Source: Malacoraja senta (lineage: Eukaryota). Taken from it: a stretch of 64,000 nucleotides of DNA. Where the stretch lies: positions 4,278,001-4,342,000 of the forward strand of contig CM075991.1 of assembly GCA_038087875.1 (NCBI GenBank), written 5' to 3'. Below, in pieces: positions 4,028 through 54,761 of this stretch. Within the stretch, counting starts at the first letter, position 1, and each line of letters starts with the position of its first letter. The notes below the pieces were generated by a model, which saw nothing but the letters and a program-made list of their open reading frames with translations, ran no database searches and was not told the DNA's origin. The position numbers and the translations under genes are program-made.

Positions 4028-4211
4028 TACACTGTGGATGGCTTGATTGTAGCCATGTATTCGCTGACTGGATAGCATGCAACAGAAATGTTTCCACCAT
4101 ACCTCGGTACACGCAAGAATAATAACTATAAACTAAACACAGTGACTTGCACTAAATGCTATTCCCTTATCATGTATCTATACACTGTAAATGTATAGAT
4201 GGTAATCATGT

Positions 4212-4397
4212 GTTAAGAAGGAACTGCAGATGCTGCAAAATCGAAGGTAGACAAAAGTGCTGGAGAAACTCAGCGGGTGCAGCAGCATCTATGGAGCGAA
4301 GGAAAGAGGCAACGTTTCGGGCCGAAACCCTTGGTATTTCCTTCGCTCCATAGATGCTGCTGCAACCGCTGAGTTTCTCCAGCACTTTTGTCTACCT
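4212..4397. mobile_element. Palindromic Penelope-derived short insert
   Basis: Two inverted arms; 16-bp direct repeat tagatggtaatcatgt at 4196-4211 and 4398-4413. Confidence 0.75.
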
Positions 4398-4707
4398 TAG
4401 ATGGTAATCATGTTTTGTCTTCCTACTGACTGTAGCATGCAGCGAAAGCTTTCACTGCACAACAAACTAAACTAAACTAAACTAACAGTACCCTCTGTGT
4501 AAATTAGTTGCCCCACGCATCTCCTTTAAAATTAGACAACTCACCCATCTTAAAAGATATTTGAAACAGGTACATGAATAGGAAAGATTGATATGGGCTA
4601 ATCATGGGCAGGTGGGACTAGTGTAGATGGGGCATCTTGGCTGGTATGGGCATGTTGGGCTGATGGACCTGTTCCTGTGCTGTATTACGCTGTGACTCTA
4701 AGATTCT

Positions 4708-5030: not shown

Positions 5031-6384
5031 GTCATGAAAATTATGAGTTGTAGAATATAGGGAATATAGTAGGAATGTTGAGGGAGTAAAATAGGGTTGG
5101 TGTTTCACTAATGTAAAAGGAAGCTTAACTGTTAGGGCACATTTGGTGGGATGAATGGTCTGTTTTCCTGCTGTAAGACTTCATGACATATAAACATCAA
5201 GAGTCATAAACCTACACTCCCACAAGATTAACAAAATGCTGGAGAAACCCAGTGGTTCGAGTGATGGGGGAAGGAAATGTTGATGTTTTGTGATCCATGC
5301 GAGGCCAATGATCGGTGGAAATGATCAAGAGCACAAGAACAATGTGACAAATGTCCTTTCAGACCTTTCAGTCTGAAGAAGGGCCCCAACCCGAATCATC
5401 AACTACCCATTTTCCCCAGAGTTGCTGCCTCTATGTTACTCCAGCACTTTATGTCTATCTTTGGTCTAAACCTGCATCTGCAGTTCATTTGTATTATACC
5501 CGATCTCCTTTGTTGGTTGTTTCAAATATGATTTGGAGGATAGAAATTGTTACTTTGCTTTGAAATAGTCTGTTCTTAAAAGTATCTTTAATGACTAATG
5601 CTGGTTATGCTGGACAGATGCTGGTTTATACCAAAGATAGACACAGAGTGGTGGAGTAACTCAGGCAGCATCAACTGGAGAAAATGGATATGTGACGCTT
5701 TGGGTCGGGACCCTTCGTCAGACAGAAAAAGTCTGAAGAGAGGTCCCAACCTGAGTTGTTAAGGTTAGTAATAAGAAGGAACTGCAGATGCAGGTTTATA
5801 CCAAAGATCGGCACAACGTGCTGGAGTAACTCAGTGGGTCAGACGTCATCACTGGAGAAAATGGATAGGTGACATTTCAGGTCAGGATCCTTCTTCAGAC
5901 TTCTTCAGAGTCTGAAGAAGGGTCCCGATCCAAACATCACCTGTCCATTTTCTCCAGAGATGCTGCCTGACCCGCTGAATTACTCCAGCACTTTGTACCT
6001 ATCTTTATTGAGGTTAGTGTTGTGTGGTGTTCAAGATGGTTGCTGAGAAGAAGCTATTCTTGAATCTGGTGGTTGTGGTTTTCAGCCTCCCATACCTTCT
6101 TCCCGATGATAGGAGTGAAATGAGAACTGGCCAGGGTGGTGTAGGTCTTTGATGATATTGGCTGCATTTTTTTTTTTGAGGCAACGCCTCCTACAGATCC
6201 CTTCAAAGATGGCCTTAGTTTAAAACAACATCTTGTCCAAAAATCAACACCTCCAACATTGCGTCCCTCAATGACCAGCGGCCTGTAATTGTGTATCCGC
6301 ACAGGGATTTGAACTCACATTGAGTGAGAGACATATGTATGGAGCCACACGTGACACATTGAGTGGATAAACCACGTATGCCCA

Positions 6385-6727
6385 GGAGATAGACACAAAA
6401 TGCTGAAGTAACTCAGCGGGACAGGCAGCATCTCTGGAGAGAAGGAATGGGTGACGTTTCGGGTCAAGATCCTTCTTCAGACTAGTCAGGGAACAAGGAA
6501 AATGACAGATATGGTGACGGAGAGAGATATAGAACAAATGAATGAAAGATATACAAAAAAGTAACAATGAAAAACTAAACATTGTTAGCTGTTTGCTGGA
6601 TGAGAACGAGAAGCTGGTGCGACTTGGATGGGGGAGGGATGGAGAGCGAGGGAATGCAGGGGTTACTTGAAGTTAGAAAAATCAAAACTCATACCACTGG
6701 GTGGTAAACTGCACAAACAAAAATATG
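6385..6727 (-). mobile_element. Penelope-like element 3' fragment: ORF C-terminus, pyrimidine-rich 3'UTR and hammerhead-like motif
   Basis: The minus strand reads FCLCSLPPSGMSFDFSNFK* (Penelope-like ORF end), then a UTR, then CTGAAGAAGGATCTTGACCCGAAACGTC (6480-6453). Flanked by tatgccc(a/t)ggaga at 6377-6389 and 6724-6736. Confidence 0.75.
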
Positions 6728-9700
6728 CCCTGGAGACATATGTTCCACATACATGCACATGCTTCTCAGCTTAAAATCTACCTGAAAAACTCAGTTACAA
6801 ATAAATATGTGATTAGACGTGAAATTCGTATCTGTTCGTACTGGCTTTTCATTTTTTTCAAATTTCAAATTATTATCTTTATTACTCACGATAAAACTGG
6901 GCTCATCAAATCTAGCCAGCTTGGTATAAAACCATCACCTGTAGTTCCTTGGTATTAAATCTATACAGGTGTTGCTATTCCCAATTTCCGAAGAAAAATA
7001 CCAAATTATCCAATTTCACCTATCCATTTTCTCCAGAGATGTTGCCAGTCCCGCTGACCTACTCAAGCATTTTGTGTCTTATCTTTGGTATAAACCAGCA
7101 TCTGCAATTCATATTTGTTATTTTAATTAGTTTAGAGATACAGGCCCTTTGGCCCTCTTTGGCTCAGTCTGAAGAAGAGTCTTGACAGGAAACACTGGAC
7201 TACTTACAATCTTTATCGAAGCCAATTGACCTACAAAATTGCACGTCTTTGGAATTTGGGAGGAAACCGGAGCACCCGGAGAAAACCCACGCGGTCACAG
7301 GGAGAACGTCTAAACTTCGTACAGAGAAGCACCAGTAGTCAGGATCGAACTGGCGCTGCAAGGCAGAAACTCTACCTCAGCGCCATCTGTTTATGTTATA
7401 TTTTATTACTATTGTCAATGTATTTCTCTGTAGCCTACACCATCTCTCACATGCTCCTGAAGAACTTTTCCCAAATTTCTTTACACCCACTTATACTGAG
7501 AATTTATTACTAATGGGAACCCGACAAGGTCATTCAGCACAGACAGCAGCGGAGATCGGGACCGAACACCCCGGGTCGCTAGAAATGCGAGTCGGTCGCT
7601 TTCAGGGGCAGAGCGCGGGTGGAAGCTAAGATAGAAAGAATGGGGGAATAAAGATGAAAAGACATTTTGTTTCAATGTTTAAAACCAGATTCGTTTTCTG
7701 CCGTTTGCTGCAGAGCAGTGGGCGGGGTTACCCGAGCACACAACTTCGCCAATCCAAAGCCTGGTCTTTCAAACACACACACACACACACACAAAAGCTA
7801 CGCAGAAAGCACTTTGAATTCCCAGCGGAGAGCCTGCGGCTTTTGCTGCGTCAGTCCAAACCTTCCCCGCCCCCAACAACAGAGAAACCACGGCCATTCC
7901 GCTGCTTGGACATTAAGGGCAGAGTCCAGCGGGGACAATCCTCAAACAAGGGAGGGGATATCGCCCCAGGGGGTCACAAGAGGGGCGTGGGTGCTTGGTT
8001 TAAGCACAGTTGAGAACACTGCCAAAATATGTCACAAGGTCATGTCAATGGTGATAGGAGCAGAATTAAGCCATTCGGCCCATCAAGTCTACTGGGCATG
8101 TTTCCTGGGCATATTTCCCAGTGATTTGCTTCAAGTAACCCCTGCAATCCCTCTCCACCCCCCCCCCTCCCCCACACCCAGCCACTCAATCACGGCTGAT
8201 CTATCTATCCCTCCTGCCTTCTCCTCATAACCCCTGACACCCGTACAAATCAAGAATCTATCTATCTCTGCCTTAAAATATCCATTGATTTGGCCTCCAT
8301 AGCCTTCTGGAGCAAAGAATTCCATAGATTCACCACCCTCTGACTAAAGAAATTCCTCCTCATCTCCTTCCTTTGTTTATTCTATGACACTAATAAGTGT
8401 AGGAGCAGAATGAGGCCATTCGCCCCATCAGGTCCCACCATTCAATCATGCCTGATCAATGCATCCATATTAATGGATGCTGAGAATGTCAGAATTATTT
8501 GCACTGTTCTGGTTTTGTATGTATATTTGTTAATTATAGAGTTATAGTGTGATACAGTGTGGAAAAAGGCACTTCGGCCCAACTTGCCCACACCAGGCAA
8601 CATGTCCCAGCTACACTAGTCCCACCTGCCCGCGTTTGGTCCATATCCCTCCAAACCTGTCCTATCCATGTAGCTGTCTAACTGTTTCTTAAACGTTGGA
8701 TAGTCCCTGCCTCAACTACCTCCCCTGGCAGCTTGTGCCATACACCCACCAGCCTTTATGTGACAAAGTTACCCTTCAGATTCCTATTAAATCCTCTCTA
8801 TAGCTCAGACCCTCTAGTCCTGGCAACATCCCCGTAAAATTCTGAATAAATTTTGGAAACTATCATGCCTGTGGTGAAATGCAAACGAGAGAAGATAAAG
8901 GATTCAACTCCGCAGTGGATTTAGACTTTTGTTCAAATAAAGAAATTGGCATGCGCGAAGCAGTCCATTTGGCCCATCGGGTCAGTGTCGACTATCGACT
9001 TACATAAACCCATTTTATTCTCCACATTTTCTCTTCAACTGCTCCCCCTGATTTCTACCATGGGAAATAGAAAATAGGAGTAGGCCATTCGGCCCTTCAA
9101 GCCAGCACCGCCGTTCAATATGATCATGGCTGATCATCCAAAATCAGTACCCTGTTCCCGCTTTCTCCCCATATCCCTTGATTCCGTTTGCCCTGAGAGC
9201 TATACAATATCGAACTCTTCTGTACATCTACACTAGGCAATTAACCCACCAATCTGCACGTCTTTGGGATGCGGGGGGGGGGGGAACCCCACAGGAAGAA
9301 CGTGCAAACTCCACCCAGACAGTAGCTGAAGTCAAAATTGAACCCGGGTTGCTGGAGTTGTTCGGCAGCAATTCTACCAGGGACTACCTGGGAAATGATA
9401 TTCTAAATTGTGTTCAGTTTGCCACTCTGCTCACATAGGTTGCATAAAACAACTTCATGGAAGGGTCTCGACCCGAAACATCAACCATTCCTTCTCTCCA
9501 GAGAATGTGCCTGTCCCGCTGAGTTACTCCAGCATTTTGTGTCTATCTTCGATTTAAACCGGCATCTGCAGTTCCTTCCTGCACAGTATGATTCAGGGCA
9601 AGGATTTGTTTCGGAGCATGTTCAGCCTGGTATGGTAACGAGTCCATGGATGAGTATCCGGGTATAAGTGGAACCCGGTATCGCTTCCGCAGCTGCAAGG

Positions 9701-13780: not shown

Positions 13781-15467
13781 CGAAAGTAACCTCCTCTGCC
13801 TGCACATCATCCATATCTTTTCATTCCCTGCATATCCATGTGCTTATCTGAAAGCCTCTTAAAAACCACTGTTGTGTCTGCTTCCATCACCACCCCTGGA
13901 AGTGTGTTCCAGGCACCCACCACTGTGTCAGTAAACTTGCCCCAACTGTCTCCTTTGAATTTTACCCCTCGCATCTCAAAGATTTGTCCCCCACCATTAA
14001 ACTTTTCCACCCCGTGAAATAGGTTCTAACTGTCCAGCCTATTCTATGCCGCTCATAATTGTATATACTTCTCTCGTGCCTCCAAAGCTCCAGAGAAAAC
14101 AATCCGAGTTTGTTCAACCTCTCTCTATATGTAATACCGTCAAATTTAGATAGACACCAAATGCTGGAGTAACGCAGAAGGCAGCATCTCTGGAGAAAAG
14201 GAATCGGCGACATTTCGGGTCGAAACCCTTCTTCAGTCCCGAGACGCCACCTATTCCTTTTCTCCAGAGATGCTGCCTGGCCCGCTGAGTTACTCCAGCA
14301 TTTTGTGCCTGTCCTCGGTGTAAACCAGCATCTGCACTTCCTTCCTGCACTCTCTAATCTACACAGCATTCTGGTAAACCTCTTCTGTCCCTGCCTCCAC
14401 ATCCTTCATGCAATGGGGCGACCAGATCTGCACACAAACACTCCAAATGCGGCCTAACCAAAGCTCTATAAAAGTGCAACCCTCAATGCTCAGACCGGTG
14501 AAGGCAAGCGTATCATACCATTCTCCAACAAGCTATTTCTGTTGCCACTTATGGTGTGGACCCCAATGTCTGCCACAGAAGGTAGTTGAGGCCAGTTCAT
14601 TGGCTATATTTAAGAGGGAGTTAGATGTGGCCCTTGCGGCTAAAGGGATCAGGGGGTATGGAGAGAAAGCAGGTACAGGATACTGAGTTGGATGATCAGC
14701 CATGATCAGATTGAATGGCGGTGCAGGCTCGAAGGGCCGAATGGCCTACTCCTGCACCTATTTCCTATGTTTCTATCCCCATGTACATCAATGCTATTTA
14801 GGGTCCTATAACTAACTTTATGCGTTGCCCTTACATTTGACCTTATTTATGCTAAACGCAGCATTTTAATAATGTACAAATTGTGTAAATGGGATTTGCG
14901 CAGCATTCTTAGCTCAATCCTCAGATTACGATAAATTAGGAGTAGTCTTGTAATTGAACCTGCGGGGATTGTCTGAGTTAATGCCGCTTCTCCCAGCACC
15001 GCGCAGACAGTTGTAATTAAGAGGGGGTGGCTGGTATTTTGAAGATGTTGGCGAGAATTATTTCATGGGGGTCGCAGCATTTCTGATTCCTTACACGGGG
15101 CTGGGTTTGCAAGCTGTTCGTTAATGAGACAGACTGCCCGATTCGCTCCATAGAGGCAACTGCAGTGTGATCCGCACTGCAGATGCTGCAAGTGTCCTTT
15201 AGGGACAGAATGCACAGGCTATAGCACCAGGCACCTTGCCAAGAAAAAATACTTTTAGGCAAGTTGAAGACTAACTCATTTTCTCGCTCTCTAACCATTG
15301 CAGGAAGCAACTAACTCGTGACTCGACCCGCTTCGGAATACACAGTCTGCCGCTTACCTTGCACGATATTCAGATAAGAATCCCACACTCATTTCCACAC
15401 CTTGCAGCTGGCCAGACAGGATTCCCCGCCTCCCCCTGCCTACTGCGACCCAGCGAAGCAATACATA

Positions 15468-15676
15468 CAAGATAGACACAGAATGCTGGAGTAACACAGC
15501 GGGACAGGCAGCATCTCTGGGTGGAAGGAATGGGTGACGTTTCGAGTCGAGACCCTTCTTCAGTCCCGAAACGTCACCCATTCCTTCTCTCCAGAGATGC
15601 TGCCTGTCCCGCTGAGTTACTCCAGCATTTTGTGTCCATCTTCGGTTTAAACCGGCATCTGCAGTTCCTTCCTACA
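15468..15676. mobile_element. Palindromic Penelope-derived short insert
   Basis: Inverted arms around ccttcttcagtcccgaaacgtc; flanks cgaagcaata(c/a)ata at 15454-15467 and 15677-15690. Confidence 0.75.
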
Positions 15677-18600
15677 CGAAGCAATAAATAGCTATGAGAG
15701 CTGGGAAAATATTTTTCACACAAACTTGTCTCGAAAACTACCGGACTGTCTGGGGTTACCCGCCGGTCTCATTTTGTGTAATTGAGACGGGAGGGGGGAG
15801 GGGGGAGGGGGGAGGGGGGAGGGGGGAGGTGGGGGCGGGCTTGCATTCAAAATTTAAACCCGAATGGTTTTCTTCTGGAAATATCTATAATATATTTCTG
15901 CAGATATTCTGCAACTATCTATAATATCTATCACGTCCAATAAGGCAGTTCAACATCTGGTGCCCCACAGAGATCAGATGCCTTTGAACAGAACATTCGG
16001 TTGAGAAATCTGCAATCTCTTGAATGTACTCTACTAGGTTAAAGATTGGGTCGGAGAATGGCGCAGCTGGTGGAGCTGCTGCCTCACAGCCCGGAGACCC
16101 GGGTTCGATCCTAACCTCGGGTGCTGTCTTGTGTGGTGTTTGCACGTTCTCCCTGTGGCCGCGTGTCTGAGAAAGATGGGATATCATAGAACTAGTTTAA
16201 ACGGGTGATCGAAGGTATCTTTCAAGCAATCAGATGTACAAAGTGTGAAGAAAGGTCCCGACCCGAAATATCACCCAGCCTGTATCATCCAGCTGCCTGT
16301 CCCGTTGAGTTACTGTAGACAAAAATGCTGGAGAAACTCAGCGAAGGAAATAGGCAACGTTTCGGGCCGAAACCCTTCTTCAGACAGAGTTACTCCAGCA
16401 CTTTTGCATCACCTGCAGTTCCTTCCTACCACTCGGTTCAAGTCACATTGGCGGGGGACGGGGTTCAAAATTAAAATGAGAAATAGATTTGGACGGTGAA
16501 AGTAATTAATTGCACACATTTTGTGTCAATTCGGCCAGGCACTATATCGGGCCGAGTGTGCCCGAGTGGCTACCGCCTTTAATGATCCTTGTGGTAGCTG
16601 CAGTGAACGCATGGACACGCCCCCAGTCATTTCCCAGCGCGGCCTCGGCCAAGCGAATTACTGTGAAACCACCGCCTCCCACAAGCCCTCTGCAGTGGGC
16701 GATCTATATCTCTCTTCCGCACACTCATGCACATAATTTGCAACAAATCCCGTTCTCCGAGACACCTGCAGCTTGTACCAGCAACGAGCGAGGATCAATG
16801 CTTGAAGAGACCGTCTCCAAATGTCTGACTCTCACCAAAGCGTTCAGTATGACTGGCAACGAAGAGGTAGAAGAGGCAAGGAACTGCAGATGCTGTATTT
16901 ATTTTTTTAAACACAAAGTGCTGGAGTAACTCAGCGAGTCAGGCAGTCATAAAGCCATAAGTGATAGGGGCAGAATTAGGCCATTCAGCCCATCAAGTCC
17001 ACTCAAGTCTATAGTATTTCTGGAGAACATGGATAGGTGATGTTTTGGGTCGGGGTCCTTCTTCAGACTGACAATTGTTTCCTGGTCAAAGGGGCAAGGA
17101 CATTTGACTTATTTGTACACCAATTCATAAGCTCATAGGAACATAAATAGGCCATTCGGCCCATGCAGTCTACTCCGCCATTCAATCATGGCTGAACAAT
17201 CCCTCACAGCAATCACAATCCGTCCTGCCTTCTCCCCGTAGCCCCTGAGACCAATATAAGAATCAGTCAATCTCCGTTTTAAAAATACCCAATGACATGG
17301 CCTCCACGGCAGTCGGTGGCATTGAATTCCACAGATACACCACCTCGTTTCTGAAGGCAGGTCCTTTTATTCTGAAGCTGAATTTGCTTTTATGATTTAA
17401 ATTTCTTGAAAAGGAAAGAATTCTTCACGGCCAATTAAATACTCAAAGCTAAGATTATTAAAATCTGATAAAAATCAAAACCTTTCCACAACGGGGTTCC
17501 TAACACTCCAAGTGTTTTACAACCAATGAAGTATTGCTAATGCAGAAATGCATTGGTGCAAAGCGGGCTGCCACAGTGACAGGGAAGAATGCTGGAAGTG
17601 AGGAGAGGCAGGACAAAGCCTCAGAATTAAAGGACGTTCTTTTAGGAAGGAGGTGAGGAGGAATTTATTTCGTCAGACGGTGGCGAATCTGTGGAATTCT
17701 TTGCCATAGAAGGCTGTGGAGGCAAAGTCTGTGGATATATTTAAGGCAGAAATAGATAAATTCTTGATTTGGACGGGTGTCAGAGGTTATGGGGAGAAGG
17801 CAGGAGAATGGGTTTAGGAGGGAGAGATATATCAGCCATGATTTAATGGCGGAGTAGACTTGATGGGCTGAATGGCCTAATTCTACTGCTATCACATGAT
17901 TTTATGAAAGCATGGTAGGTACTAGGTGAACACAGGTGAGGGGTGCGGTGGGAGGTTTGATCGGCAGAGGGTAAAATGGTACTTTATGGTACTTTATTTG
18001 CCACAGGTACAGTGAATTTCATTTTTGTAGGCAATTCAGTACAAGCATCCCTACACATAAGCACTTAGATACATCTTAGATAAACATCTCAGTTACAGCA
18101 CAAGTGCTTAGCAGTCGTACATTGAGACAGTATACAGAGTTGCCAGTTTTGGTGTCATTTTCAAGCCGCAAAGGCTAAAGGTTGGACAAAGGCCGTGCGA
18201 CAAAATAATTGAAAAGCTGCAAAGTGTGAAGCCGGAGGAACGAATGTAGGTGATTGTTTTTGTGTGGGATGTTCTATGATAGGTGATGGGCAAAAAATAT
18301 GAAAGGGTGTATGGGGAAATATCCTTCAGAATGTTTGCACAGTTTTGAGCACAGTTGAGCTTGTAATTCCTCCCCAGGTAAAAATGTCTGGCAACATCTC
18401 TGACAATGCAGCATTCCCTTGGCAGTAATCATCTTCCAGACTCAGTGCCAAGAGTGTTATCCACTAAGGCACAACAGACATGATGATTAGTAGGAATCAG
18501 TCTGCAAAAGGAATCCAGCTACACATTGTACCTTGGGACCACTCAGCATAAGGGCCAGCCTTCCAAACGCATGTCCCCCTTGCCTGCCACCTCTTCTGTG

Positions 18601-25461: not shown

Positions 25462-25965
25462 GAAACAAGGAACTGCGGATGTGTAGGAAGGAACTGTAGG
25501 TGCTGGTTTATACTGAAGATAGACACAACATGCTGGAGTAACTCGTGTTAAAGAAGGAACTGCAGATGCTGGAAAATCGAAGGTACACAAAAAAATGCTG
25601 GAGAAACTCAGCGGGTGCAGCAGCATCTATGGAGCGAAGGAAATAGGTAACGTTCTTCAGACTGAAGAAGGGTTTCGGCCCGAAACGTTACCTATTTCCT
25701 TCGCTCCATAGATGCTGCTGCACCCGCTGAGTTTCTCCAGCATTTTTTTGTGTACCATGCTGGAGTAACTCAGCGGGTCTGGTATTCAGTCTATAGGAGT
25801 GTCTCGACCCGAAACGTCGCCTGTTCCTTATCTCCAGAGACGCTGCTGAAAGAACTGCAGATGCTTGTTAATAGACAGAAAGTACTGGAGCAACTCAGGG
25901 GGTTAGGCGCTATCTCCGGGGAACATGGATAGGTGACGTTTCGGAATCGAGATCCTTCTTCAGAT
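25462..25965. mobile_element. Three nested Penelope-derived short elements
   Basis: Innermost 25545-25755, flanked by catgctggagtaactc at 25529-25544 and 25756-25771; outer duplication gaactgc(g/a)gatg. Confidence 0.7.
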
Positions 25966-26573
25966 ACTTTAGAGAAATAACACAACTACACTTAAAGACC
26001 CCGGCTGAACGTATAGAGTGGGATTCAGTCAATTGTCTGTAGTTTTCGTGTCGTCTGAAGAAGTGTCTCGACTCGAAATGTCACCCATTCCTTCTATCCA
26101 GAGATGTTGCCTGTCCCGCTGAGTTACTCCAGCATTTGGTGTCTATCTTCTGGCCTTTCGATCGCTTGATCCTCTTCGCAGTACAAGACTGGGTCAGGCA
26201 ATATGTCCAGTACAATTACAGACAGGAAAAAACCTGGGATAGAAGACCTCAGTCGTAACCTCTGTCCAGCGGTGCCACGTGCATTTTCGGTTTACATTTC
26301 TGAATCTCCACATCTTTATTAAAATAATAATTTGTCTTAAGTAGATCAGCCTCTGCAAAATTACACCATTGATTCTCCCTAAAATCTCCAGTCAAAGCCG
26401 CCCCGAATCTCTCAACCCACTAATTACCCACCATGTTTCTCGGGCAGGCTTTTTTTCTCCTGTTTTATTCACGGAGCTTTGGACAATTTGGCCATTTTAA
26501 TACAACGCGGCTGGGTCGGGGGCGTACGGTTGGCACACGCCGAGATGCGTTGAATTGGGAAGGGCATGGGGTT

Positions 26574-26668
26574 AGTCTGAAGAAGGGTTTCGGCCCGAAA
26601 CGTTACCCATTTCCTTCGCTCCATAGATGCTGCTGCACCCGCTGAGTTTCTCCAGCATTTTTGTGTAC
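26574..26668 (+). mobile_element. Single-arm Penelope-derived insert beginning at the hammerhead core, about 1.2 kb upstream of NEFL
   Basis: CTGAAGAAGGGTTTCGGCCCGAAACGTT at 26577-26604; direct repeat catggggttagtctg at 26565-26579 and 26669-26683. Confidence 0.75.
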
Positions 26669-27736
26669 CATGGGGTTAGTCTGGCTGTGCAGAGTCGCCC
26701 AAACCCTCTCCGCCAGGCTGCAATGTCAAAGATGCAGCAGTTTTCGACATGGCGAGATTTGCCATCGCCTTTCAGGTCTGGGTAACAATTGCAACAAAAC
26801 TGGGTCCGCTTCCCCCCCCCCCCCCCCCTCCCCTCCCTCCCCTCCCTCCCCTCCCTCCCCTTCAAACAATGACTTGTCCACAACGGGTGTCGGCCGCCAG
26901 ACTCCCTCGTACATTAAATCCGACAATTACCCCCTCTACACATCTGCATTCATATCACCGGGACATTCTGCCCGATTATTTTTTTTAAACAGCTTATAAT
27001 GCTCAAATTGTATTCTCGACATCAACACGCTTTGAAGTGAGAGTCCAACAACTCATGTTATAATCAAAATAAAAATATTTGCTCTTTAATCCACTGTAAG
27101 CTTAACTCCAGCTCTCCTTGATCTGGATGTCACTGACACGATTTTATCATTATCTATCCGAACTAATCTCCTTTATGCTGCAAACACCTTAATTGGGTCG
27201 CTTGTGTTATCTTACACATAGAACACGTCGTGGATTCGAACCGGTTCCCGGGGACGTAGAGCATTGTGTAGTGGGAGGACAAAGGAATGCGGGGAGGGAG
27301 GAATGGGGTGGGGTGGGGGTTAGGGTTAAGGAAGGCTCCCGTGCTCACTGAATCTCCCGGCTATTGCGCCGCTGGGTGGGGAGGGGGGATTTAAAATATC
27401 TAACAGGGAGGAGGGGGGGGCAGGCAAGGGTTAAGTCACAGGATACGGGGACGGGGCTGGTTTTATGCAGGGGAACATAATATGGGGTGCGGTGGAGAGG
27501 GGTTTCAAGACTGGAGCTTGTTCCAGAGCAGTGGGGGCAGACATTGGGGCAGCAACCCAGAAACGAGTTGCCGCAGAAGGCACCATTTTGAGTGGAATAT
27601 CCGGGCTGTATCAAATTTCTACCGAGACTGGAATTGCATTGATTCGGACACCAGTTTTGTTTGCTCGGCGCGATTGGAGCCCGTCAGCTTTCTGTTAGTG
27701 GGCGTGTGCAGTATCGATCTGACTGGTGAAAGAGGC

Positions 27737-27765
27737 TGCGTCAGTGCTGTGACTGGGTATAAATA
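27737..27765 (+). promoter_or_regulatory. NEFL core promoter: CRE-like TGCGTCA (27737-27743) and TATA box TATAAATA (27758-27765)
   Basis: Motifs read directly, 36-64 nt upstream of the ATG, at the edge of a CpG-rich region. Confidence 0.8.
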
Positions 27766-27800
27766 GGCGGCTGCGGACCAAGCCCAGCACATTCGGCACC

Positions 27801-28844
27801 ATGAGCACTTCCAGCTACGACTCCTTCCTCCACGGTCACAGGAGGCGCTATGGCGACAGCTCCATCCCTAGGACCTACGGAACTGCCCAGCATTTCAGGA
27901 GCGGCTATGGCAGCAGCGCGAAGCCCTCCTACACAACCTACTCGGCGCCTTCCTTCGCCGTGAGGAAAGCCCACAGCATCTCGTCCTCTCTCATGTCCTC
28001 AATGGACAACTACGACCTGAGCCAGGCCACCGTGGTGAGCAGCGAGTTCAGGGCGCTGAGAACCCAGGAGAAAGCCCAGCTGCAGGACCTGAACGACCGC
28101 TTCGCCAGCTTCATCGAGAAGGTGCACGAGTTGGAACAGCAGAACAAGGTGCTGGAGACCGAGCTGGGGCTGCTGCGCCAGAAACACGGAGGACCATCCC
28201 GCCTCAAGGGCATCTACGAGCAGGAGCTGAGGGACCTGCGGCTGGCGTTGGACGATGCTAAACACGAGAGGCAGGCGGCGCAGAGCGAGCGGGACCACCT
28301 GGAGGACACCCTGAAGAACCTCCAGAGCCGCTACGAGGAAGAGGTGTTGAACCGGGAGGATGCCGAGGGCAGGCTGATGGAGGCCAGGAAGGGCTCCGAC
28401 GATGCGGCGCTGGCCAGGGCCGAGGTGGAGAAGAAGATTGACAGCTTGATGGACGAGATCGCCTTCCTGAAGAAGCTCCACGAGGAAGAGATCGCCGAGC
28501 TCCAGGCCCAGATCCAGTACGCGCAGGTGACCGTGGAGGTGGACATGGCCAAGCCCGACCTCTCCTCCGCCCTGCGGGAGATCCGCGGCCAGTACGAGAA
28601 GGTGGCCGCCAAGAACATGCAGTCGGCCGAAGACTGGTACAAGAGCCGCTTCGCCGTGCTCAGCGACACCGTGTCCAAGGACCACGACGCCACCAAGCAA
28701 GCCAAGGACGAGGTGGTGGAATATCGGCGCATGGTCAAAGCCAAGACCCTGGAGATCGACGGCGTGAGGGGGATGAACGAGGCGCTGGAAAGGCAGCTGC
28801 AGGAACTGGATGAGAAACAAGGCGGGGAGATCAGCGCATTACAG
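27801..28844 (+). CDS. NEFL: NEFL coding exon 1 (head and most of the rod, 348 codons)
   Basis: ATG in GGCACCATGA context; ends EISALQ then donor gtaagg at 28845. Confidence 0.97.
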
Positions 28845-31588
28845 GTAAGGACTTGGAGCGGGGAGAGGGGAGGGGGCTGGAGAGAAGGATAAGGGTTGAA
28901 GGTCAACGGGGAGAGGGGATAGAGGGAGGGACGAAAAAATGGTGTTGGAAACAGAAGGAGAGACCCAGAAGTGAGAGAGGGGTGGTTTGGAGTAAGGGGG
29001 GCAAACTCGCTCACAGAAGCACACAATGGAAGGAGGAGGTGGGACATGGTAAAGTGACCGGGGAGAAGCGGGAGGAGAAGTTTGGGCTGGGGAGGATGAG
29101 CCTTGCCACTTGACCATCTCCATTCTCTGCACTTAGGATGCCATCAGCCAACTGGAGAATGAGCTCCGAAACACCAAGAACGAGATGGGCCGCTACCTGA
29201 AGGAGTACCAGGATCTCCTGAACGTCAAAATGGCCCTGGACATCGAGATCGCAGCCTACAGGTAAACGAGGGGGGTGCCCCCAGGGACGCAATTTGTTCC
29301 CAGAGGCAAGGGGACTCCAATAGCTCTCGCTGCCCTGGGAACTCGGGCACCGGGATGGGAGGGGAGTATCTCAGACTAGGGGTCCCGGGAGATAAGTCAA
29401 GCCAATTGGTGGGTGTTTCGAAATTTGGCTCACCAGTCAGCGTTAACCTGGCTCGGGGCTCTTCCTCGGCGATATCCAGGACCACTTTCCATAGACTCTC
29501 AATAGACTCTTGAGGGCCGCCACCTCGCTTCGCCCCCTCCCCCATCTCCCCCCCCCCTTCAACCAACCAGGAACCCGCATTGCACCATTTGTGTGCGGCC
29601 ATTCACTACTGGGCGTGGCGCATGCACCGCACTGGCCTCTTGCTGTTCTCTCCAGGGAAGGGCAATGAACAAGCTGCTGTTTGGTCATTAACGTTGGAGA
29701 CCCGCAGCCTTCAGTCGCTGGAAGATTTGCAAGGAAGAAATAAAAGCTGAGACGCGTGCATTGGCGTTGGCCTCTGATGCTAGGGATCGCCCCCTTTGCT
29801 CTCTCCCCTACCCCCTCTCTCCCCCCCTCCCCCCCTATCCCGGATCATGGCCGACCCTCTCCCGAGCAGAGAATTCCCAGCACAGCTCCCAGCCGGTTGA
29901 TTTTTTTTCTGCTGTGCCAGTGTGCAATATTATCTACAGTGTACGGATAAGGCCACGCCACAGCCGGGCGAGGCACTGTTCCCTCCAAGCGCGGGTTTTA
30001 GACAGTTGCCAAAACAAACATGAGGAAGGGGAATAGGATCAAATCGGTGGTTATTGTGAGCGCGGTGGAAGGGGACTTAATATATCATCACAATGAAACA
30101 AAGAAGGTATACATTGGGAGGGGAGAGTGTGTGGGAGATCAGGAGACAGAGCGGGGCCATTTCCACTGACCCACTGCTTAAGGGGCAGCCGGTTCTTGCT
30201 GATGGGCCATTGAGGGGGGGGGGCGGGACATTTTGGGAATGTTTGAAGCAACCCCTCCAAATTTCTGTGCCGCGATCCAGGAAACTGCTGGAGGGAGAGG
30301 AGACGCGGATCAACTATTCCAACGTGGGCGGCATGATCAGCGGCTATGCCCACACACAGAGTGCCGCCATGTTCAGCCGGCCCAACTACTCCATGCAGAG
30401 CAGCTCCTACATGCTGTCCAGCAGACCCACCATCTTCAGTGCCTATTCCAGCAGCCAGGCTGAGGAGGAGGTCATGCAGCAAGTCCAGGCATACTCGGCT
30501 CAGATGGAGCCTCCAGCAGACGAGGTTGATGAAGGAGAAGGTAAGAGTCTTGACCGGTGGAACCTCAAGGGCAGAAGTGTCCCAGTGCCAACAATTGGAT
30601 GGCAGTTCGTGTTCATAAGTTGTAGCAGCAGAATTATTCACTTTGGCTCATCACGTCTAACCCACCACTCAATTATGGCTGATTTATCCTTCCCTCTCAA
30701 CCCCATTCTCCTGCCTTTTCCCAATTACCTCTGACACCCTTTCTAATCAAGAACCCATCAATCTCCACCTTAAAAATATCCATTGACTTCAGTGGTAATG
30801 AATCATCCTCTCCACATCCACTCTATCCAGGACTTTCACTAATCGGTATGTTTCAATGACATCCCCCCCCCCCCCTCATCCTTCTAAACTCCAGGAAGTA
30901 CAGGCCCAGTGCCGTCAAACGCTCATCATATGTTAACCCAAATATCTCTGGGATCATTCTTGTAAACCTCTTCTGAACCCTCTCGAAAGCCAGCACATCC
31001 TTCCTCAGATATGGGGCCCCATGTTCGGTATGACCAGTGCCTTATAAAGCCTCAGCATTACATCCCTGTTTTTGTATTCTAGCCCTCTCGAAATACTGTA
31101 AATGCTATCAGTAAATGTTGGCAGCACTCCCTTGACATTGGGTGGTGGGTTCAAGTCCCACTCCCCATTACAGCAGAGCCCATGTCTGCTCGGAGTTTCA
31201 GTGCCGAGGGTGTGATCCACTTGGAGAGATGAGGCTCTTGAGTAAGAGAGATCCTCTGCCCTCTCAGCTGGAAAAATCCCTCCACACTCTTCCAGTAATA
31301 GTTCTCCCTCCCGTTTACCACTCAATCTGCTGCAAAGGGAACAGATCGCTGGCCGGCCACTAACACTGATCTCTGGTTTTCGAAGGTGAGGATGAGGAAG
31401 GAGAAGAGGACGTTGGAGAGGAAAACGGAGAAGAGAAGGAGGAGGAAGATGGAGAGGAGGAAGATGAGGCCCAAGGAGAGGGCGAAGAGAAGGATGAGGA
31501 AGGAGAGAGTGAAGAGCAGGAAGAAAGCAAGGAGAATGGAGCTGTGACTAATGGTAAGAGTGCAGCGAAGGTGGAAGAAAAGAAGTAG
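27801..31588 (+). CDS. NEFL: Neurofilament light polypeptide (NF-L), complete 4-exon gene: join(27801..28844,29137..29261,30281..30540,31386..31588), 543 aa
   Basis: Type IV intermediate filament head, rod and tail: [33 protein letters not shown] at the rod start, [29 protein letters not shown] at the rod end, then a Glu-rich tail. All introns are GT-AG. Exon lengths 1044+125+260+203 = 1632 nt splice in frame to a TAG at 31586-31588. Confidence 0.97.
29137..29261 (+). CDS. NEFL: NEFL exon 2 (125 nt, [42 protein letters not shown])
   Basis: Acceptor cattctctgcacttag, donor gtaaac; encodes the coil 2B terminal motif. Confidence 0.97.
30281..30540 (+). CDS. NEFL: NEFL exon 3 (KLLEGEETR and tail subdomain A)
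   Basis: Acceptor cgcgatccag, donor gtaaga at 30541; phase continues from exon 2. Confidence 0.95.
31386..31588 (+). CDS. NEFL: NEFL exon 4 coding part (acidic tail [13 protein letters not shown]...KVEEKK*)
   Basis: Branch point CACTAAC at 31358-31364, acceptor ggttttcgaag, purine-rich Glu codons, in-frame TAG. Confidence 0.92.
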
Positions 31589-38445: not shown

Positions 38446-39953
38446 CACCATCTCAGTAATTATGTTCTATGATGGGGAAACAAGGAATTGCAGATGCTGG
38501 TTAATACACAAATGGACACAAAGTGCTAGAGTGCAGGTCAGGCAGCATCTCAGGGGGATATGGATAGGTGACATTTCGGGTTGAATCCCTTCTTCATGTT
38601 CTCCAGAGATGCTGCCTAACCAGCTGAGTTACTCCGGCACTTTGTGTCCTGTTATGTTCTGCAATGGACTTTATTTTGGTTGCACTATGGACAATATGTA
38701 TTGTATTAGTTTGCTCTGGTTACCCAGCATTAGTGATTATTAACATTGTGTTATTAGTTATTGTATCTTTATTTTAATGTGAATAGTGAAAGTTCTTGGA
38801 TAGAGTGGATATGAAAAGGATGTTTGCACTAGTGGGAGAGTCTAGGACTGGAGGTCACAGCCTCAGAATTAAAGTACGTTCCTTTAGGAAGGAGATGAGG
38901 AGGAATTTCTTTAGTTGGAGGGTGGTGAATCAATGGAATTCTTTGCCACGCCCAAGTCAATGGATATTTTTTAGGCAGAGATAGATAAATTCTTAGCTAC
39001 ACAAAAATGCTGGAGAAACTCAGCGGGTGCAGCAGCATCTATGGAGCGAAGGAAATAGGCAACTTTTCGGGCCGAAACCCTTCTTCAGATAAATTCTTGA
39101 TTAGTACGGGTGTCAGGGGTATGGGGAGAAGGCAGGAGAATGGAGTTAGGAGAGATAGATCAGCCATAATTGAATGGCAGAGTAGACTTGATGGGCCGAA
39201 TGGCCTAATTCTGCTCCTATCACTTATGACCTTATGACCTTATAAGTGCTTAATGGACCTATAAAGCTGCAGGAAGTACGAATTTCATTGTTCCATTGCC
39301 GGTAATACGACAATTAAACACTCTAGACTATTGTCTCTTTACCTCACCTTTACTCACCCAGTATCCCTGAAGTCATCTATACTACTTGTCTCGACCATTT
39401 TCTATGAAGGCACGTTTTACATTCTTCCCATTTGCTGGGGAAAAATGTTTCTCATAAATTACATGTTTGAATTATTCACAACAGCTTAATATTTCCCAGC
39501 GCTGGCCACCACACTAAATCATACATTTATTACCTTTCTCTATATCTGGCCAGAATTATTAACATTTTAAAATCTCAGTCAGTACTTCTGCAGTTTGGAA
39601 GTTTTCATGGCTAGTCTGAAGAAGGATCCCGACCCGAAACGTCATCTATCCATTTTCGCCAGAGATGCTGCCTGACCCACTGTTACTCCAGAATTTTGTG
39701 TCCAAGTGCTTTCCTTGTTTAATGTCAATACTCTGAACTCCTGCACACCTTTCCCATTCAGGATCACATGGAATCAATGTTTTATTTTATAACAGTCAGC
39801 CAGCAATGTTAAAATTTCCATTCCATTCTTTATTGGTAGTTGACAAGTCTAATAATTAATCTTATTGAAAACACTTTTATTCACTTGGTATTAATCTGTC
39901 AGAAAGTGAATGAAAGGACATTAAGATGAGTAACCATTAATTACTGAAACACA

Positions 39954-40139
39954 GGGAGACAAAAGTGCTGGAGAAACTCAGCGGGTGCGGCAGCATCTAT
40001 GGAGTGAAGGAAAAAGGCAATGTTTCGGCCCGAAACATTGCCTTTTTCCTTCGCTCCATAGATGCTGCCGCACCTGCTGAGTTTCTCCAGCACTTTTGTC
40101 TACCTTCGATTTTCCAGCATCTGCAGTTCCTTCTTGAAC
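39954..40139. mobile_element. Palindromic Penelope-derived short insert
   Basis: Inverted arms; aattactgaaacaca at 39939-39953 and 40140-40154. Confidence 0.75.
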
Positions 40140-40202
40140 AATTACTGAAACACAAACTTGTTCAGTAACAATTGCAGCTCATGTTCACAGGATTTAACAG
40201 TG

Positions 40203-40670
40203 AGATTCATTTGCACTTCTTCTAATCTTATGTATTGCAGTTGCTGTTCATGATATGATCTCCTCTACATTGGAGGAACCAATTGCAAATTGTGATTGTG
40301 TAGGAAGGAACTGCAGATGCTGTTTTACACTGAAGATAGACACAAAATGCTGGAGTAACTCAGCGGGTTAGGCAGCATCTCTGGGGATTGCATTGCAGAG
40401 CAGTTGGTGTTCATTATATAATCTTCTCTACATTGGAGGAACCAAATGTAAATGGTGATTGCTGAACAGAGCACCTCTGGTCATTGCACAGGGATGACCT
40501 TGAGCTTTCAGATGCCTTTTGCTTGAATTCTCCATTCCAGTCCTCTCTGCTTTGTTCCAGTGACACCAAGGTAATCCTGAGCAACAGGACCTCATCTTCC
40601 ATCTTCAGCAGTGCTGAACTACTATCTACCTCTTTGATGTCCCTCAATGATGACTTTGCTGGCTTTACCT
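40203..40670 (+). mobile_element. Degenerate Penelope-like GIY-YIG endonuclease coding remnants (two partial copies, one interrupted by a short insert at about 40299-40385)
   Basis: RFICTSSNLMYCSCCS*YDLLYIGGT from 40203; a second LYIGGTK, then EHLWSLHRDDLELSDAFCLNSP and EQQDLIFHL, with stops and frameshifts. Confidence 0.7.
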
Positions 40671-40687
40671 TGCACTAAACATTATTC

Positions 40688-40887
40688 NNNNNNNNNNNNN
40701 NNNNNNNNNNNNNNNNNNNNNNNNNNNNNNNNNNNNNNNNNNNNNNNNNNNNNNNNNNNNNNNNNNNNNNNNNNNNNNNNNNNNNNNNNNNNNNNNNNNN
40801 NNNNNNNNNNNNNNNNNNNNNNNNNNNNNNNNNNNNNNNNNNNNNNNNNNNNNNNNNNNNNNNNNNNNNNNNNNNNNNNNNNNNNNN
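40688..40887. other. Assembly gap (200 N, probably a fixed-size placeholder)
   Basis: Exactly 200 N. Confidence 0.99.
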
Positions 40888-41101: not shown

Positions 41102-42155
41102 CTGATAGTTGCCCACGTCAGAGTTGTGGCGGTCCTCGATGTCAGTGAGCTGCCTCTCCAGGGAATCCTTGGTGCTCCTCGCCGACTCCAGCTCGATGGC
41201 TCTTGGACTGCAGTTGGCGCCGGTACTCGCCCATCTCATCGCGGGACACGCGGATGGCGTCCTTGTTCATCTCGGCCGCCTCGTTGAGCTTGACGTAGCG
41301 GCACTTGAACCACTCCTCGGCCTGCTGCATGTTCCTGGTCGAGTGGCACTCGAGCTGCGAGCGGATGTCCCTCAGTGCCGAGGTGATGTCGGTCTTGAGG
41401 AAGTCCTTCTTCTCCACCGTCACCTGGGACCCCTGGATCTGGGCGAAGAGGTCGCCCACCTCCTCCTCGTGGTTGCCCCGCAGGAAGGCCACCTCGTCCT
41501 GCAGGGACTGAGCCTTCTTCTCCATCTCCACCCTCATCATCGACGAGTCGGCCGTCTCCTTCTTCAGCCCGCGGATGGTGGCCTCCGTGTCGTCCCGCAG
41601 GCGCGCCTCCTCGTCGAAGCGGTCCTTGAGGCGGTGCAGATCATCATCCAAGTGCCCCGAGTCCAACTGGATCTGGGCTTTCTCTTGGTTCACCTGCTCG
41701 ACCAGCGACCTCATTTCGCGGATCTCCTGGTCGTACACATCGCCGAGCTGCGAGTGCGACACTTGCTTCTGGCGGTGAGCTTGGATCTCGGCTTCCAGCT
41801 CCTTGTTCTGCTGTTCCAGGTAGTGCACCTTATCGATGTAGCCGGCGAACCTGTCGTTGAGTCCCTGCAGGAGCTCTTTCTCATTGCTGCGGATGGCTTT
41901 GTAATCTCCGTTCAGGGCGCTGCCCTGGCTGTAGTCGAGGCTGTCGGAGGAGCTGTAAGCCCGGGGAGCGTGGACGCTGGCGATGCGGCGGTAGGAGGAA
42001 GACGAGGTGGTGACCGCCGGGGTCGGGCTAACCCGGGACCAGGACTGAGATCGGAAACCGCTGGAGGGCGAGGCGCTGACGCGGCTGCCCAGGCTCCTGG
42101 TCTCCACTCTCCGGTAGGAGGGCGGGTTGCCGACCGTCTCCAGGATGTAGCTCAT
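41102..42155 (-). CDS. NEFM: Neurofilament medium polypeptide (NF-M), exon 1 only, with an apparent +1 frameshift at 41198/41199; downstream exons not in the visible sequence
   Basis: [17 protein letters not shown]...[13 protein letters not shown] head; [38 protein letters not shown]. It continues in a second frame as [32 protein letters not shown], followed by donor CAG|gtagcg at 41101. Confidence 0.95.
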
Positions 42156-42215
42156 CTTGAGAAGTGGCTGCGAGTGGAGCTGTTCACAATGAGGACTCGG
42201 TGTGGCCGCGCCTGC

Positions 42216-42224
42216 TTTTATATA
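42216..42224 (-). promoter_or_regulatory. NEFM TATA box (TATATAAAA)
   Basis: Lies about 60 nt upstream of the NEFM ATG within a CpG-rich region. Confidence 0.8.
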
Positions 42225-54519: not shown

Positions 54520-54742
54520 ATTGTTTTAAACCTGTGCCTTCAGGTTTTCCTTTATCATCGTAACTTTTTTGCGTATATTTCATTCATTGTTCTTTATCTC
54601 TCTACATCACCGTCTATATCTCTCGTTTCCCTTATCCCTAACCACTCTGAAGAAGGGTCTTAACCCGAAACGTCACCCATTCCTTCTCTCCAGAGATGCT
54701 GCCTGTCCCGCTGAGTTACTCCAGCTTTTTGTGTCTACCTTC
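54520..54742 (+). mobile_element. Penelope-like pLTR/3'UTR fragment with hammerhead-like motif at 54647-54674
   Basis: Same UTR as 6385-6727, followed by CTGAAGAAGGGTCTTAACCCGAAACGTC and the family tail. Confidence 0.7.
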
Positions 54743-54761
54743 AGGTTGTGAGATCTTTGAT

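What the first reader, a model, noticed from the sequence alone, without database searches (positions are those of the whole stretch)
6385..6727. Abundant short repeat family carries a minimal hammerhead-ribozyme core and is physically linked to a Penelope-like ORF end
Seen: about 30 copies in 64 kb share CTGAAGA-A-[GGGTC/loop/GACCC stem]-GAAAC-GTH. Examples are 6480-6453 (-), 15563-15536 (-), 25662-25689, 26577-26604, 39616-39643 and 54647-54674. In this copy the motif is contiguous with a pyrimidine-rich UTR and the ORF end ...PSGMSFDFSNFK*. Established: CUGANGA...GAAA...UH is the hammerhead core. Penelope-like elements carry minimal type I hammerheads in their pLTRs, with a vestigial palindromic helix III (here ACGT) that is completed by dimerisation. 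Inference: this is a highly amplified, mostly non-autonomous, ribozyme-bearing Penelope derivative in a batoid genome. Caveat: helix I is weak here (about 2-4 bp, cagt vs acc), so many copies may be catalytically dead.
Basis: partly seen in the sequence, partly recalled or inferred. Interest (0 to 1): 0.75.

Follow-up and report, generated by a model that had tools for sequence, protein, structure and literature searches.

The report
Penelope retrotransposon stubs with minimal hammerhead
This 334-base insertion is a truncated end of what is very likely a Penelope-like jumping gene, one of 58 related pieces filling about 8% of this window; it carries the minimal hammerhead ribozyme motif already known from such elements, but most copies, this one included, are damaged and are predicted not to cut themselves.

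Summary
The core CTGAAGAA-stem-GAAAC occurs 13 times exactly (0.05 expected), 32 times with mismatches; 58 pieces cover 8.5% of the window. The copy spans 6390-6723 (-) between a 13-bp target-site duplication: 19 codons resembling a Neptune-type GIY-YIG end, a pyrimidine-rich UTR, the minimal type I hammerhead and 63 bases downstream. In three related runs the majority letter at one codon gives the conserved Asn (G-M-N). The family shows the published Penelope hallmarks: 5' truncation, head-to-head inversions (12 pairs), a 35-40-base tail on one arm only (10 of 12; none on both) and 9-16-bp duplications (8 of 12). Core positions carry no shared variants (0 of 11, against 21 of 56 downstream). 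Against activity: 7 of 33 cores are intact, this copy has a broken stem II, helix I is 2 bp, there is no compensatory covariation, and the monomer is predicted to fold into a hairpin that hides the core. No full-length master was found. The copies look like dead-on-arrival stubs, not a separate non-autonomous family. New member of a known kind; its density and regular insertion anatomy are the only unusual points.

The parts
6724..6736 (.). Target-site duplication, copy at the element's 5' end (13 bp)
   Evidence: 12 of 13 identical to 6377-6389; score 10, reached by 1 of 146 random site pairs
6663..6723 (-). Last ~19 codons and stop of an ORF resembling the C-terminus of a Penelope GIY-YIG domain (F-x-L-x4-P-x-G-M-S-F-D-F-S-N-F-K*)
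   Evidence: pattern occurs once in the window, here; 0.045 per shuffled window; pattern chosen after seeing the sequence; spacing compared by eye with Neptune-1_Ac in Craig 2021 Fig. S2; majority letters in 3 runs give Asn at 6689-6687 and Ile at 6686-6684, with synonymous differences at 6681 and 6678
6484..6662 (-). Pyrimidine-rich 3' UTR / pseudo-LTR body; its last ~95 bases are shared with copy 54547-54737
6453..6483 (-). Minimal type I hammerhead motif: helix I 5' strand 6482-6481, CUGAAGA 6480-6474, extra A 6473, stem II 6472-6461 (mismatch at 6470), GAAA 6460-6457, C-G 6456-6455, UC 6454-6453; predicted cut between 6453 and 6452
   Evidence: architecture as in Cervera 2014; cleavage untested
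6390..6452 (-). Downstream pseudo-LTR segment ending at the short (tail-less) 3' end; its first ~22 bases are predicted to pair with and hide the core
6377..6389 (.). Target-site duplication, copy at the element's 3' end
4196..4413 (.). Example head-to-head pair, tail on left arm only, 16-bp perfect duplication, junction in palindromic stem II
15454..15690 (.). Head-to-head pair, tail on right arm only, 14-bp duplication (1 mismatch)
25529..25771 (.). Young head-to-head pair (arms 73/73 identical), tail on left arm, 16-bp duplication, inserted into an older copy
39939..40154 (.). Head-to-head pair, tail on right arm only, 15-bp perfect duplication
54537..54747 (+). Second long solo copy (part of UTR + intact core), 10-bp duplication
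26565..26683 (+). Short solo copy with intact core and UUCG loop; 15-bp duplication overlapping the element's 5' edge (microhomology)

Best explanation
The repeat is very likely the 3' pseudo-LTR of an endonuclease-bearing Penelope-like retrotransposon (probably Neptune type), scattered as 5'-truncated, likely dead-on-arrival stubs whose hammerhead core would have been selected only in the source elements. Shown: copies end at one of two fixed 3' points about 38 bases apart, have variable 5' ends, often sit head-to-head with a tail on one arm only, and are flanked by 9-16-bp duplications. Inferred mechanism: a dimeric RT/GIY-YIG protein nicks both target strands about 10-16 bases apart. Each 3' end primes reverse transcription inside the RNA, one at the tail end and one at the inner start. 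Both cDNAs stop early, mostly at the hammerhead, and join through short self-complementary stretches: the imperfect palindrome TCAG-T-CTGA at the core's 5' edge, or stem II. Solo copies would arise when one cDNA joins the target overhang directly. The hammerhead is predicted to be off by default (2-bp helix I, no helix III, a competing hairpin) and would cut after GUC/GUU only as a dimer or with the element's protein, as reported for other Penelope hammerheads. Odds: Penelope identity about 0.93; two-ended priming about 0.55; a cleavage-competent ribozyme in source elements about 0.5.
For: Two 3' end classes; 19 of 50 copies that reach the 3' region have the tail; the tail is also the main loose end at 6387 in 3 of 4 runs laid. 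Of 12 adjacent head-to-head pairs, 10 have exactly one tail by motif scan, an 11th a degraded tail by eye, 1 none, 0 both (P about 0.01-0.02 if arms were independent). Duplication score >=9 in 8 of 12 pairs and 4 of 18 solo copies, against 3 of 146 random site pairs. Inverted pLTR, one-sided tail, 8-10-bp duplications and junction palindromes are published Penelope hallmarks (PMC3846280 passages; PMC8557442 passages). Both-strand nicking and extension, two internal RT starts, a predicted dimer and a protein-assisted hammerhead are shown in vitro for the anole element (PMC11167929). ORF end matches the spacing of Neptune-1_Ac FRLRTEHPQGLN, and 86-96% of depth in three runs has the letter giving Asn. 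Core columns with a variant shared by >=3 of 24 copies: 0 of 11, against 21 of 56 downstream (p=0.010) and 7 of 16 other columns of the same motif (p=0.013). 8 of 12 pairs have an arm ending within -3..+1 of C3; 4 of the 6 opposite-strand joints listed in the runs end at 6480-6483 (which shows 15 of 175 joints).
Against: No RT or GIY-YIG domain was recovered. The 35-aa frame had no Pfam hit, three unrelated repetitive phmmer hits, no word-index hit and no Atlas hit, so the ORF link rests on 19 codons. No duplication was found for 14 of 18 solo copies or for 4 of 12 pairs (one borderline, score 8). The partner arm is the best match in only 3 of 12 pairs and second in 2; ranks 4-49 of 57 in the rest, so a shared template is supported only for young pairs. 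No two-sided compensatory change in 6 of 6 pairs over 26 copies. Predicted stem II probability is under 0.1 in 10 of 11 copies and helix I is 0.00 in 11 of 11. Copies were picked by likeness to the core, which inflates core conservation. 5' ends do not gather at the predicted cut site.
Confidence: 0.8

Rival explanations
1. Same element, but the inversions come from fold-back or self-priming (for example on an antisense transcript, as proposed by Arkhipova 2013) followed by endonuclease resolution that leaves the tail on one side, not from two independent priming events.
For: Junctions lie in palindromes; three young pairs have arms that match each other best; proposed in PMC3846280.
Against: In vitro the anole protein extends both strands from two internal starts. 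Direct duplications abut both 3' ends, as two primed nicks would give. Either arm can be the longer one.
Confidence: 0.25
2. The hammerhead is vestigial even in source elements; the letters are kept for another job, such as a 3' splice site (pyrimidine tract + YAG just before the core), a protein-binding site or a cDNA joining point.
For: 2-bp helix I, no covariation, occluding hairpin. Hammerhead mutants do not impair insertion in vitro. 8 of 9 predicted Xenopus dimers did not cleave. In D. virilis the intron ends at helix I.
Against: Variation follows hammerhead rules: shared changes fall on loop II, H17 (C/U), 11.4 (U-A to U-G) and 1.1 (A/G), none on the 11 core columns, including G12-A15 and U16.1, far from any splice site. 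Culex and D. virilis motifs also have a 2-bp helix I. No joint with splice-site ends is among the 15 of 175 joints shown.
Confidence: 0.3
3. A dedicated short non-autonomous element (SINE-like or retrozyme monomer) of about 100-135 bases that starts at the core and is copied from its own short masters.
For: Most copies begin within a few bases of C3. Depth in run X1 falls about 50-fold between 6470-6484 and 6485-6499. Retrozyme monomers derived from pLTRs are reported in one chondrichthyan (bioRxiv 2026.07.22.740005).
Against: No head-to-tail array of the unit in the window. 5' junctions differ from copy to copy. Long copies continue into UTR and ORF within their own duplications. No 5' transduction in 21 tested copies. 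Part of the depth drop reflects subfamilies with different upstream sequence.
Confidence: 0.12
4. A palindromic DNA-transposon MITE with long terminal inverted repeats.
For: Head-to-head pairs look like inverted-repeat elements.
Against: Asymmetric ends (tail on one side), a different centre in most pairs, duplications of variable length and sequence, solo 5'-truncated copies, and a link to an ORF end.
Confidence: 0.02

Closest known systems
Minimal type I hammerheads in pLTRs of metazoan Penelope-like elements (Cervera and de la Pena 2014, PMC4209133)
   Same: CUGANGAH, extra base before stem II, G10.1-C11.1, GAAA-C-G-U-H without loop III, U/pyrimidine-rich upstream, mostly single scattered copies, some in close opposite-strand pairs. 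The Acropora Neptune motif has the same 4-bp stem II and tetraloop.
   Different: Helix I is only 2 bp (as in Culex and D. virilis; most listed have 3-5). No chondrichthyan is named among the 56 motifs of Fig. S3. Density here is about one core per 2 kb, against about 4,000 and 9,000 motifs per genome for coelacanth and Xenopus (different counting rules).
Neptune-clade EN+ Penelope-like elements (Craig et al. 2021, PMC8557442)
   Same: ORF ends in an x-L-x4-P-x-G-[LM]-N-like segment followed by a UTR and hammerhead; inverted 5'-truncated copies; 30-40-bp one-sided tail.
   Different: RT, linker zinc finger and GIY-YIG core were not recovered, so clade placement rests on 19 codons. Some Naiad ends share the spacing, but there the nuclease is N-terminal and canonical hammerheads are absent.
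Poseidon element of Anolis carolinensis, PAc (Frangieh et al. 2024, PMC11167929)
   Same: Two internal 3' ends downstream of the hammerhead, defining a tail; hammerhead not active alone.
   Different: PAc's ORF starts at stem II; no start conserved across subfamilies was seen here by reading the frames. The paper saw no strand difference in start sites, whereas these genomic pairs use one start each.
Non-LTR retrozymes (Li, Clavereau and Pollet 2026, bioRxiv 10.64898/2026.07.22.740005)
   Same: Non-coding, pLTR-derived, type I hammerhead; reported in one chondrichthyan.
   Different: Defined by head-to-tail tandem units; here copies are solo or head-to-head.

Membership tests
EN+ Penelope-like elements | Single ORF with telomerase-like RT and GIY-YIG endonuclease | tested here: inconclusive
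   Only a 19-codon end is present; it matches the end-of-nuclease spacing by eye and by pattern, with majority Asn in related runs; database searches gave no homologue; no genome held
EN+ Penelope-like elements | pLTR with hammerhead downstream of the ORF stop | tested here: met
   Core begins 183 bases after the stop within one insertion bounded by a 13-bp duplication
EN+ Penelope-like elements | 5' truncation with adjacent inverted copy | tested here: met
   12 adjacent head-to-head pairs; opposite-strand joints in 3 runs
EN+ Penelope-like elements | Optional 30-40-bp tail, usually at one end only | tested here: met
   19 of 50 copies; 10 of 12 pairs one tail, 0 both
EN+ Penelope-like elements | Short target-site duplication | tested here: met
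   9-16 bp in 12 of 31 units, against 3 of 146 random
EN+ Penelope-like elements | Partial tandem (pLTR-ORF-pLTR) arrangement | not testable with these tools
   No full-length copy in the window; genome not held
Neptune clade | CX2-5CxxC zinc-finger linker and RT phylogeny | not testable with these tools
   Region absent from the window
Minimal type I hammerhead | Core C3-A9, G12-A15.1, U16.1-H17 | tested here: met
   Intact in this copy; 0 of 11 core columns carry a shared non-CpG variant in 24 copies
Minimal type I hammerhead | Stem II with G10.1-C11.1 | tested here: inconclusive
   84% of cells paired over 26 copies but no two-sided change; 3 of 4 pairs in this copy; the majority letter in related runs restores the pair
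Minimal type I hammerhead | Palindromic 15.2-16.2 allowing a dimeric helix III | tested here: met
   A-C-G-U in the majority; C 68% and G 75% of 28 copies; the position is a CpG
Minimal type I hammerhead | Helix I closing the junction | tested here: inconclusive
   2 contiguous pairs in most copies, predicted probability 0.00
Minimal type I hammerhead | Self-cleavage after NUH (dimer or protein-assisted) | not testable with these tools
   Needs an in vitro assay
Rfam hammerhead families | Score above gathering threshold | tested here: not met
   0 hits in the window; no hammerhead among E<=10 hits on an intact copy
Non-LTR retrozymes | Two or more head-to-tail units each with a hammerhead | tested here: not met
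   No such array in the window; the nearest same-strand cores (129 and 177 bases apart) are nested insertions
DNA-transposon MITE | Symmetric terminal inverted repeats, fixed ends and fixed duplication length | tested here: not met

The most novel reading that the evidence does not exclude
This may be the most abundant ribozyme-motif family in a vertebrate (about one core per 2 kb here; of the order of 10^5-10^6 copies per genome if the window is typical), and a genome-scale fossil record of two-ended Penelope integration: one dimer, two nicks 10-16 bases apart, each subunit taking a different internal start, with the hammerhead's own palindromes serving as the stop-and-join point while a conserved hairpin keeps the ribozyme off.
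Probability: 0.3. Interest if true: 0.55.

Novelty: new member of a known kind. Interest (0 to 1): 0.3.

Why it matters
Hammerheads in Penelope pLTRs, their dependence on dimers or protein, the one-sided tail and the inverted arrangement are all published, and Penelope-like expansion in a shark is reported (whale shark preprint passages). So this extends a known system to an apparently uncharacterised family. Its use is practical: many short, complete insertions with both ends and the duplication readable would allow a statistical test of how Penelope elements integrate, whose later steps are still unvalidated, and of what the hammerhead is for.

Tried and rejected
Whole genome: none held. Rfam: nothing at gathering threshold; two chance hits at E<=10. 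Search for a master element by motif: 0 matches in viral, prokaryotic genome and metagenome contigs, two patterns each. ORF end: Pfam 0; phmmer's 3 hits are tandem-repeat pseudo-proteins, rejected; word-index search none; Atlas none. The frame across the core found 2 short unannotated proteins that are translations of the same repeat, with no RT. Recalled RT and GIY-YIG motif patterns found nothing in the six frames. Covariation test negative. 5' transduction: none in 21 copies; the high scores were other copies of the repeat or not at the 3' end. The idea that the tail-less arm is always longer was rejected: 4 pairs yes, 3 no, the rest tied or unscorable. Splicing at the YAG before the core: no splice-type joint among 15 of 175 shown, left open. 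Expression: no RNA holder listed; X15 and X16 are only guessed to be RNA; X21 laid 0 reads. Earlier findings: none by sequence or place; 358 hold the words 'Penelope hammerhead', and none of the 8 shown concerns this family. Luense et al. 2016 is not held. Dfam and Repbase could not be searched.

Full report
Observation. The motif is real. CTGAAGAA-N8-20-GAAAC occurs 13 times in the window against 0.05 expected; a 25-base pattern with up to five substitutions gives 32 matches and none in 20 shuffles. BLAST with seven seed copies resolves 58 pieces, 26 on + and 32 on -, which with tails and UTRs cover 8.5% of the window. The window is vertebrate-like DNA with two intermediate-filament genes (Pfam Filament; the neurofilament names are my recall). 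The batoid label was not tested. The stretch is held, at 21-52% of sampled words, by 17 listed runs under eight coded organism labels.

Anatomy of the copy. The insertion runs 6723 to 6390 on the minus strand between 13-bp duplicates with one mismatch. It begins inside a reading frame...FCLCSLPPSGMSFDFSNFK*. The spacing F-x-L-x4-P-x-G-[LM]-[NS] matches by eye the end of the Neptune-1_Ac nuclease in Craig et al. Fig. S2, where the final Asn is marked conserved. The pattern occurs once in the six frames, here, against 0.045 per shuffled window; I chose it after seeing the sequence. In three runs laid on the stretch, 86-96% of depth carries letters that turn Ser-Phe into Asn-Ile, and two further differences are synonymous. 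Database searches did not confirm the homology. After the stop come about 180 pyrimidine-rich bases, the core (6480-6453) and 63 more bases.

Anatomy of the family. Copies end at one of two 3' points; 19 of 50 that reach this region carry a further 35-40-base tail. The tail is also the main loose end at 6387 in X1, X15 and X16. Twelve adjacent head-to-head pairs were found; I left out two looser candidates near 25490-25848 and 25871-26151. Ten of the 12 have a tail on exactly one arm by motif scan, one more has a degraded tail by eye, one has none, none has two (P about 0.01-0.02 under independence). Eight of the 12 pairs and 4 of 18 solo copies have duplications of 9-16 bp scoring >=9, against 3 of 146 random site pairs. 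Eight of the 12 pairs have an arm ending within -3..+1 of C3, where the sequence TCAG-T-CTGA is an imperfect palindrome; two join inside palindromic stem II. These are the published Penelope hallmarks (PMC3846280; PMC8557442) and do not fit a MITE.

The hammerhead. The motif fits the minimal type I consensus of Cervera and de la Pena, closest in shape to the Acropora Neptune motif. Over 24 aligned copies no core column has a non-CpG variant shared by three copies (0 of 11), against 21 of 56 downstream and 7 of 16 other motif columns. Copies were chosen by likeness to the motif, so the within-motif comparison is the fairer one. Shared changes are mostly those a hammerhead tolerates. Against activity: 7 of 33 cores are intact and only 2 of these keep a 2-bp helix I; this copy has a stem II mismatch at 6470, which the majority letter in related runs does not share; there is no two-sided covariation; and the predicted ground state pairs the core with the sequence after the cut site, with stem II probability under 0.1 in 10 of 11 copies and 1-11 kcal/mol needed to free the core. 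Rfam has no hit. Minimal hammerheads are known to be inactive as monomers and weak as dimers, and the anole one cuts only with its protein.

How it likely works. Shown in vitro for the anole element: both strands nicked and extended, two internal RT starts that define the tail, a predicted dimer, and insertion that does not need the ribozyme. Inferred here: nicks 10-16 bases apart prime two cDNAs, one from each start; both stop early, mostly at the hammerhead, and join by microhomology, giving a head-to-head stub with one tail between direct duplications. Support for a shared template is partial: the partner arm is the best match in 3 of 12 pairs and second in 2. Fold-back on an antisense template remains a rival. 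A separate short non-autonomous element is less likely: no tandem arrays, no 5' transduction in 21 copies, and long copies run into UTR and ORF. Yet the sharp fall in depth just upstream of the core is not fully explained.

Comparison and novelty. It works like, and very likely is, an EN+ Penelope-like pLTR; RT and nuclease core could not be tested. It fails the tandem criterion for retrozymes within this window. Penelope-like expansion is reported in whale shark, and hammerhead-bearing retrozymes in one chondrichthyan. Ten paper searches showed no description of this family's hammerhead, but Dfam and Repbase were not searchable, Luense et al. 2016 was not held, and the supplements of the 2026 preprint, which should name its chondrichthyan families, were not seen; any of these may already hold it.

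Papers seen: PMC4209133 main text parts 1-2 of 4, supplement 2 parts 1-2 of 3 and a term search; PMC11167929 parts 1-2 of 4 and the text of supplement 1; bioRxiv 2026.07.22.740005 parts 1-3 of 5 and a term search; PMC8557442 passages, supplement parts 54-55 of 59 and term searches; PMC3846280, PMC6765202, PMC5753468, PMC10468316 and 10.1101/443036 passages only. Earlier findings of the scan did not bear on the reading.

Verdict. Observation confirmed; interpretation right on Penelope origin and hammerhead form, less so on a distinct non-autonomous derivative; catalysis untested and doubtful for nearly all copies. New member of a known kind, interest 0.3.

Noticed in passing
window 7237-7300 (-) and 17 other places: A second abundant repeat, 18 BLAST hits in the window; resembles the V-SINE/HE1 central domain of elasmobranchs (label recalled, from no call).
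   Followed up: partly
window 27753-28892 (+), 30081-30734 (+), 41142-42239 (-): Two convergent intermediate-filament genes (Pfam Filament and Filament_head), likely the neurofilament light and medium pair (recalled). No Penelope piece was found between 27800 and 32600.
   Followed up: partly
window 6484-6500 (-), 21135, 21215, 23732, 63967: Pyrimidine tract + YAG one base before the core, like a 3' splice site; many published motifs also have AG shortly before the core. Splicing would change helix I. A second acceptor-like site lies in the tail of one subfamily.
   Followed up: partly
window 14238 and 15565: Two pairs of different subfamilies share the same junction letters (CTTCAG-T-CCCGA), suggesting a recurrent joining-and-deletion route.
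   Followed up: partly
window 5898, 6480, 25963, 39616: The same stem II change (GGGT to GGAT) occurs in four copies of more than one subfamily; unexplained.
   Followed up: no
window 25490-25970, 5633-6006, 16242-16420, 51090-51262: Copies nested in or abutting older copies; about what 8% coverage would give by chance, not tested formally.
   Followed up: partly
window 8129-8180 (+): A second fragment like the ORF-stop/UTR-start region, without a downstream hammerhead.
   Followed up: no
window 31005-31547 (-): Frame ending in a stretch like a CR1 LINE RT fragment (label recalled).
   Followed up: no
window 40688-40887: Assembly gap of 200 N.
   Followed up: no
window 40268-40285 and about 40428-40445: Perfect 18-bp direct repeat around a tailed solo copy but offset from its ends by 14 and 40 bases.
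   Followed up: no
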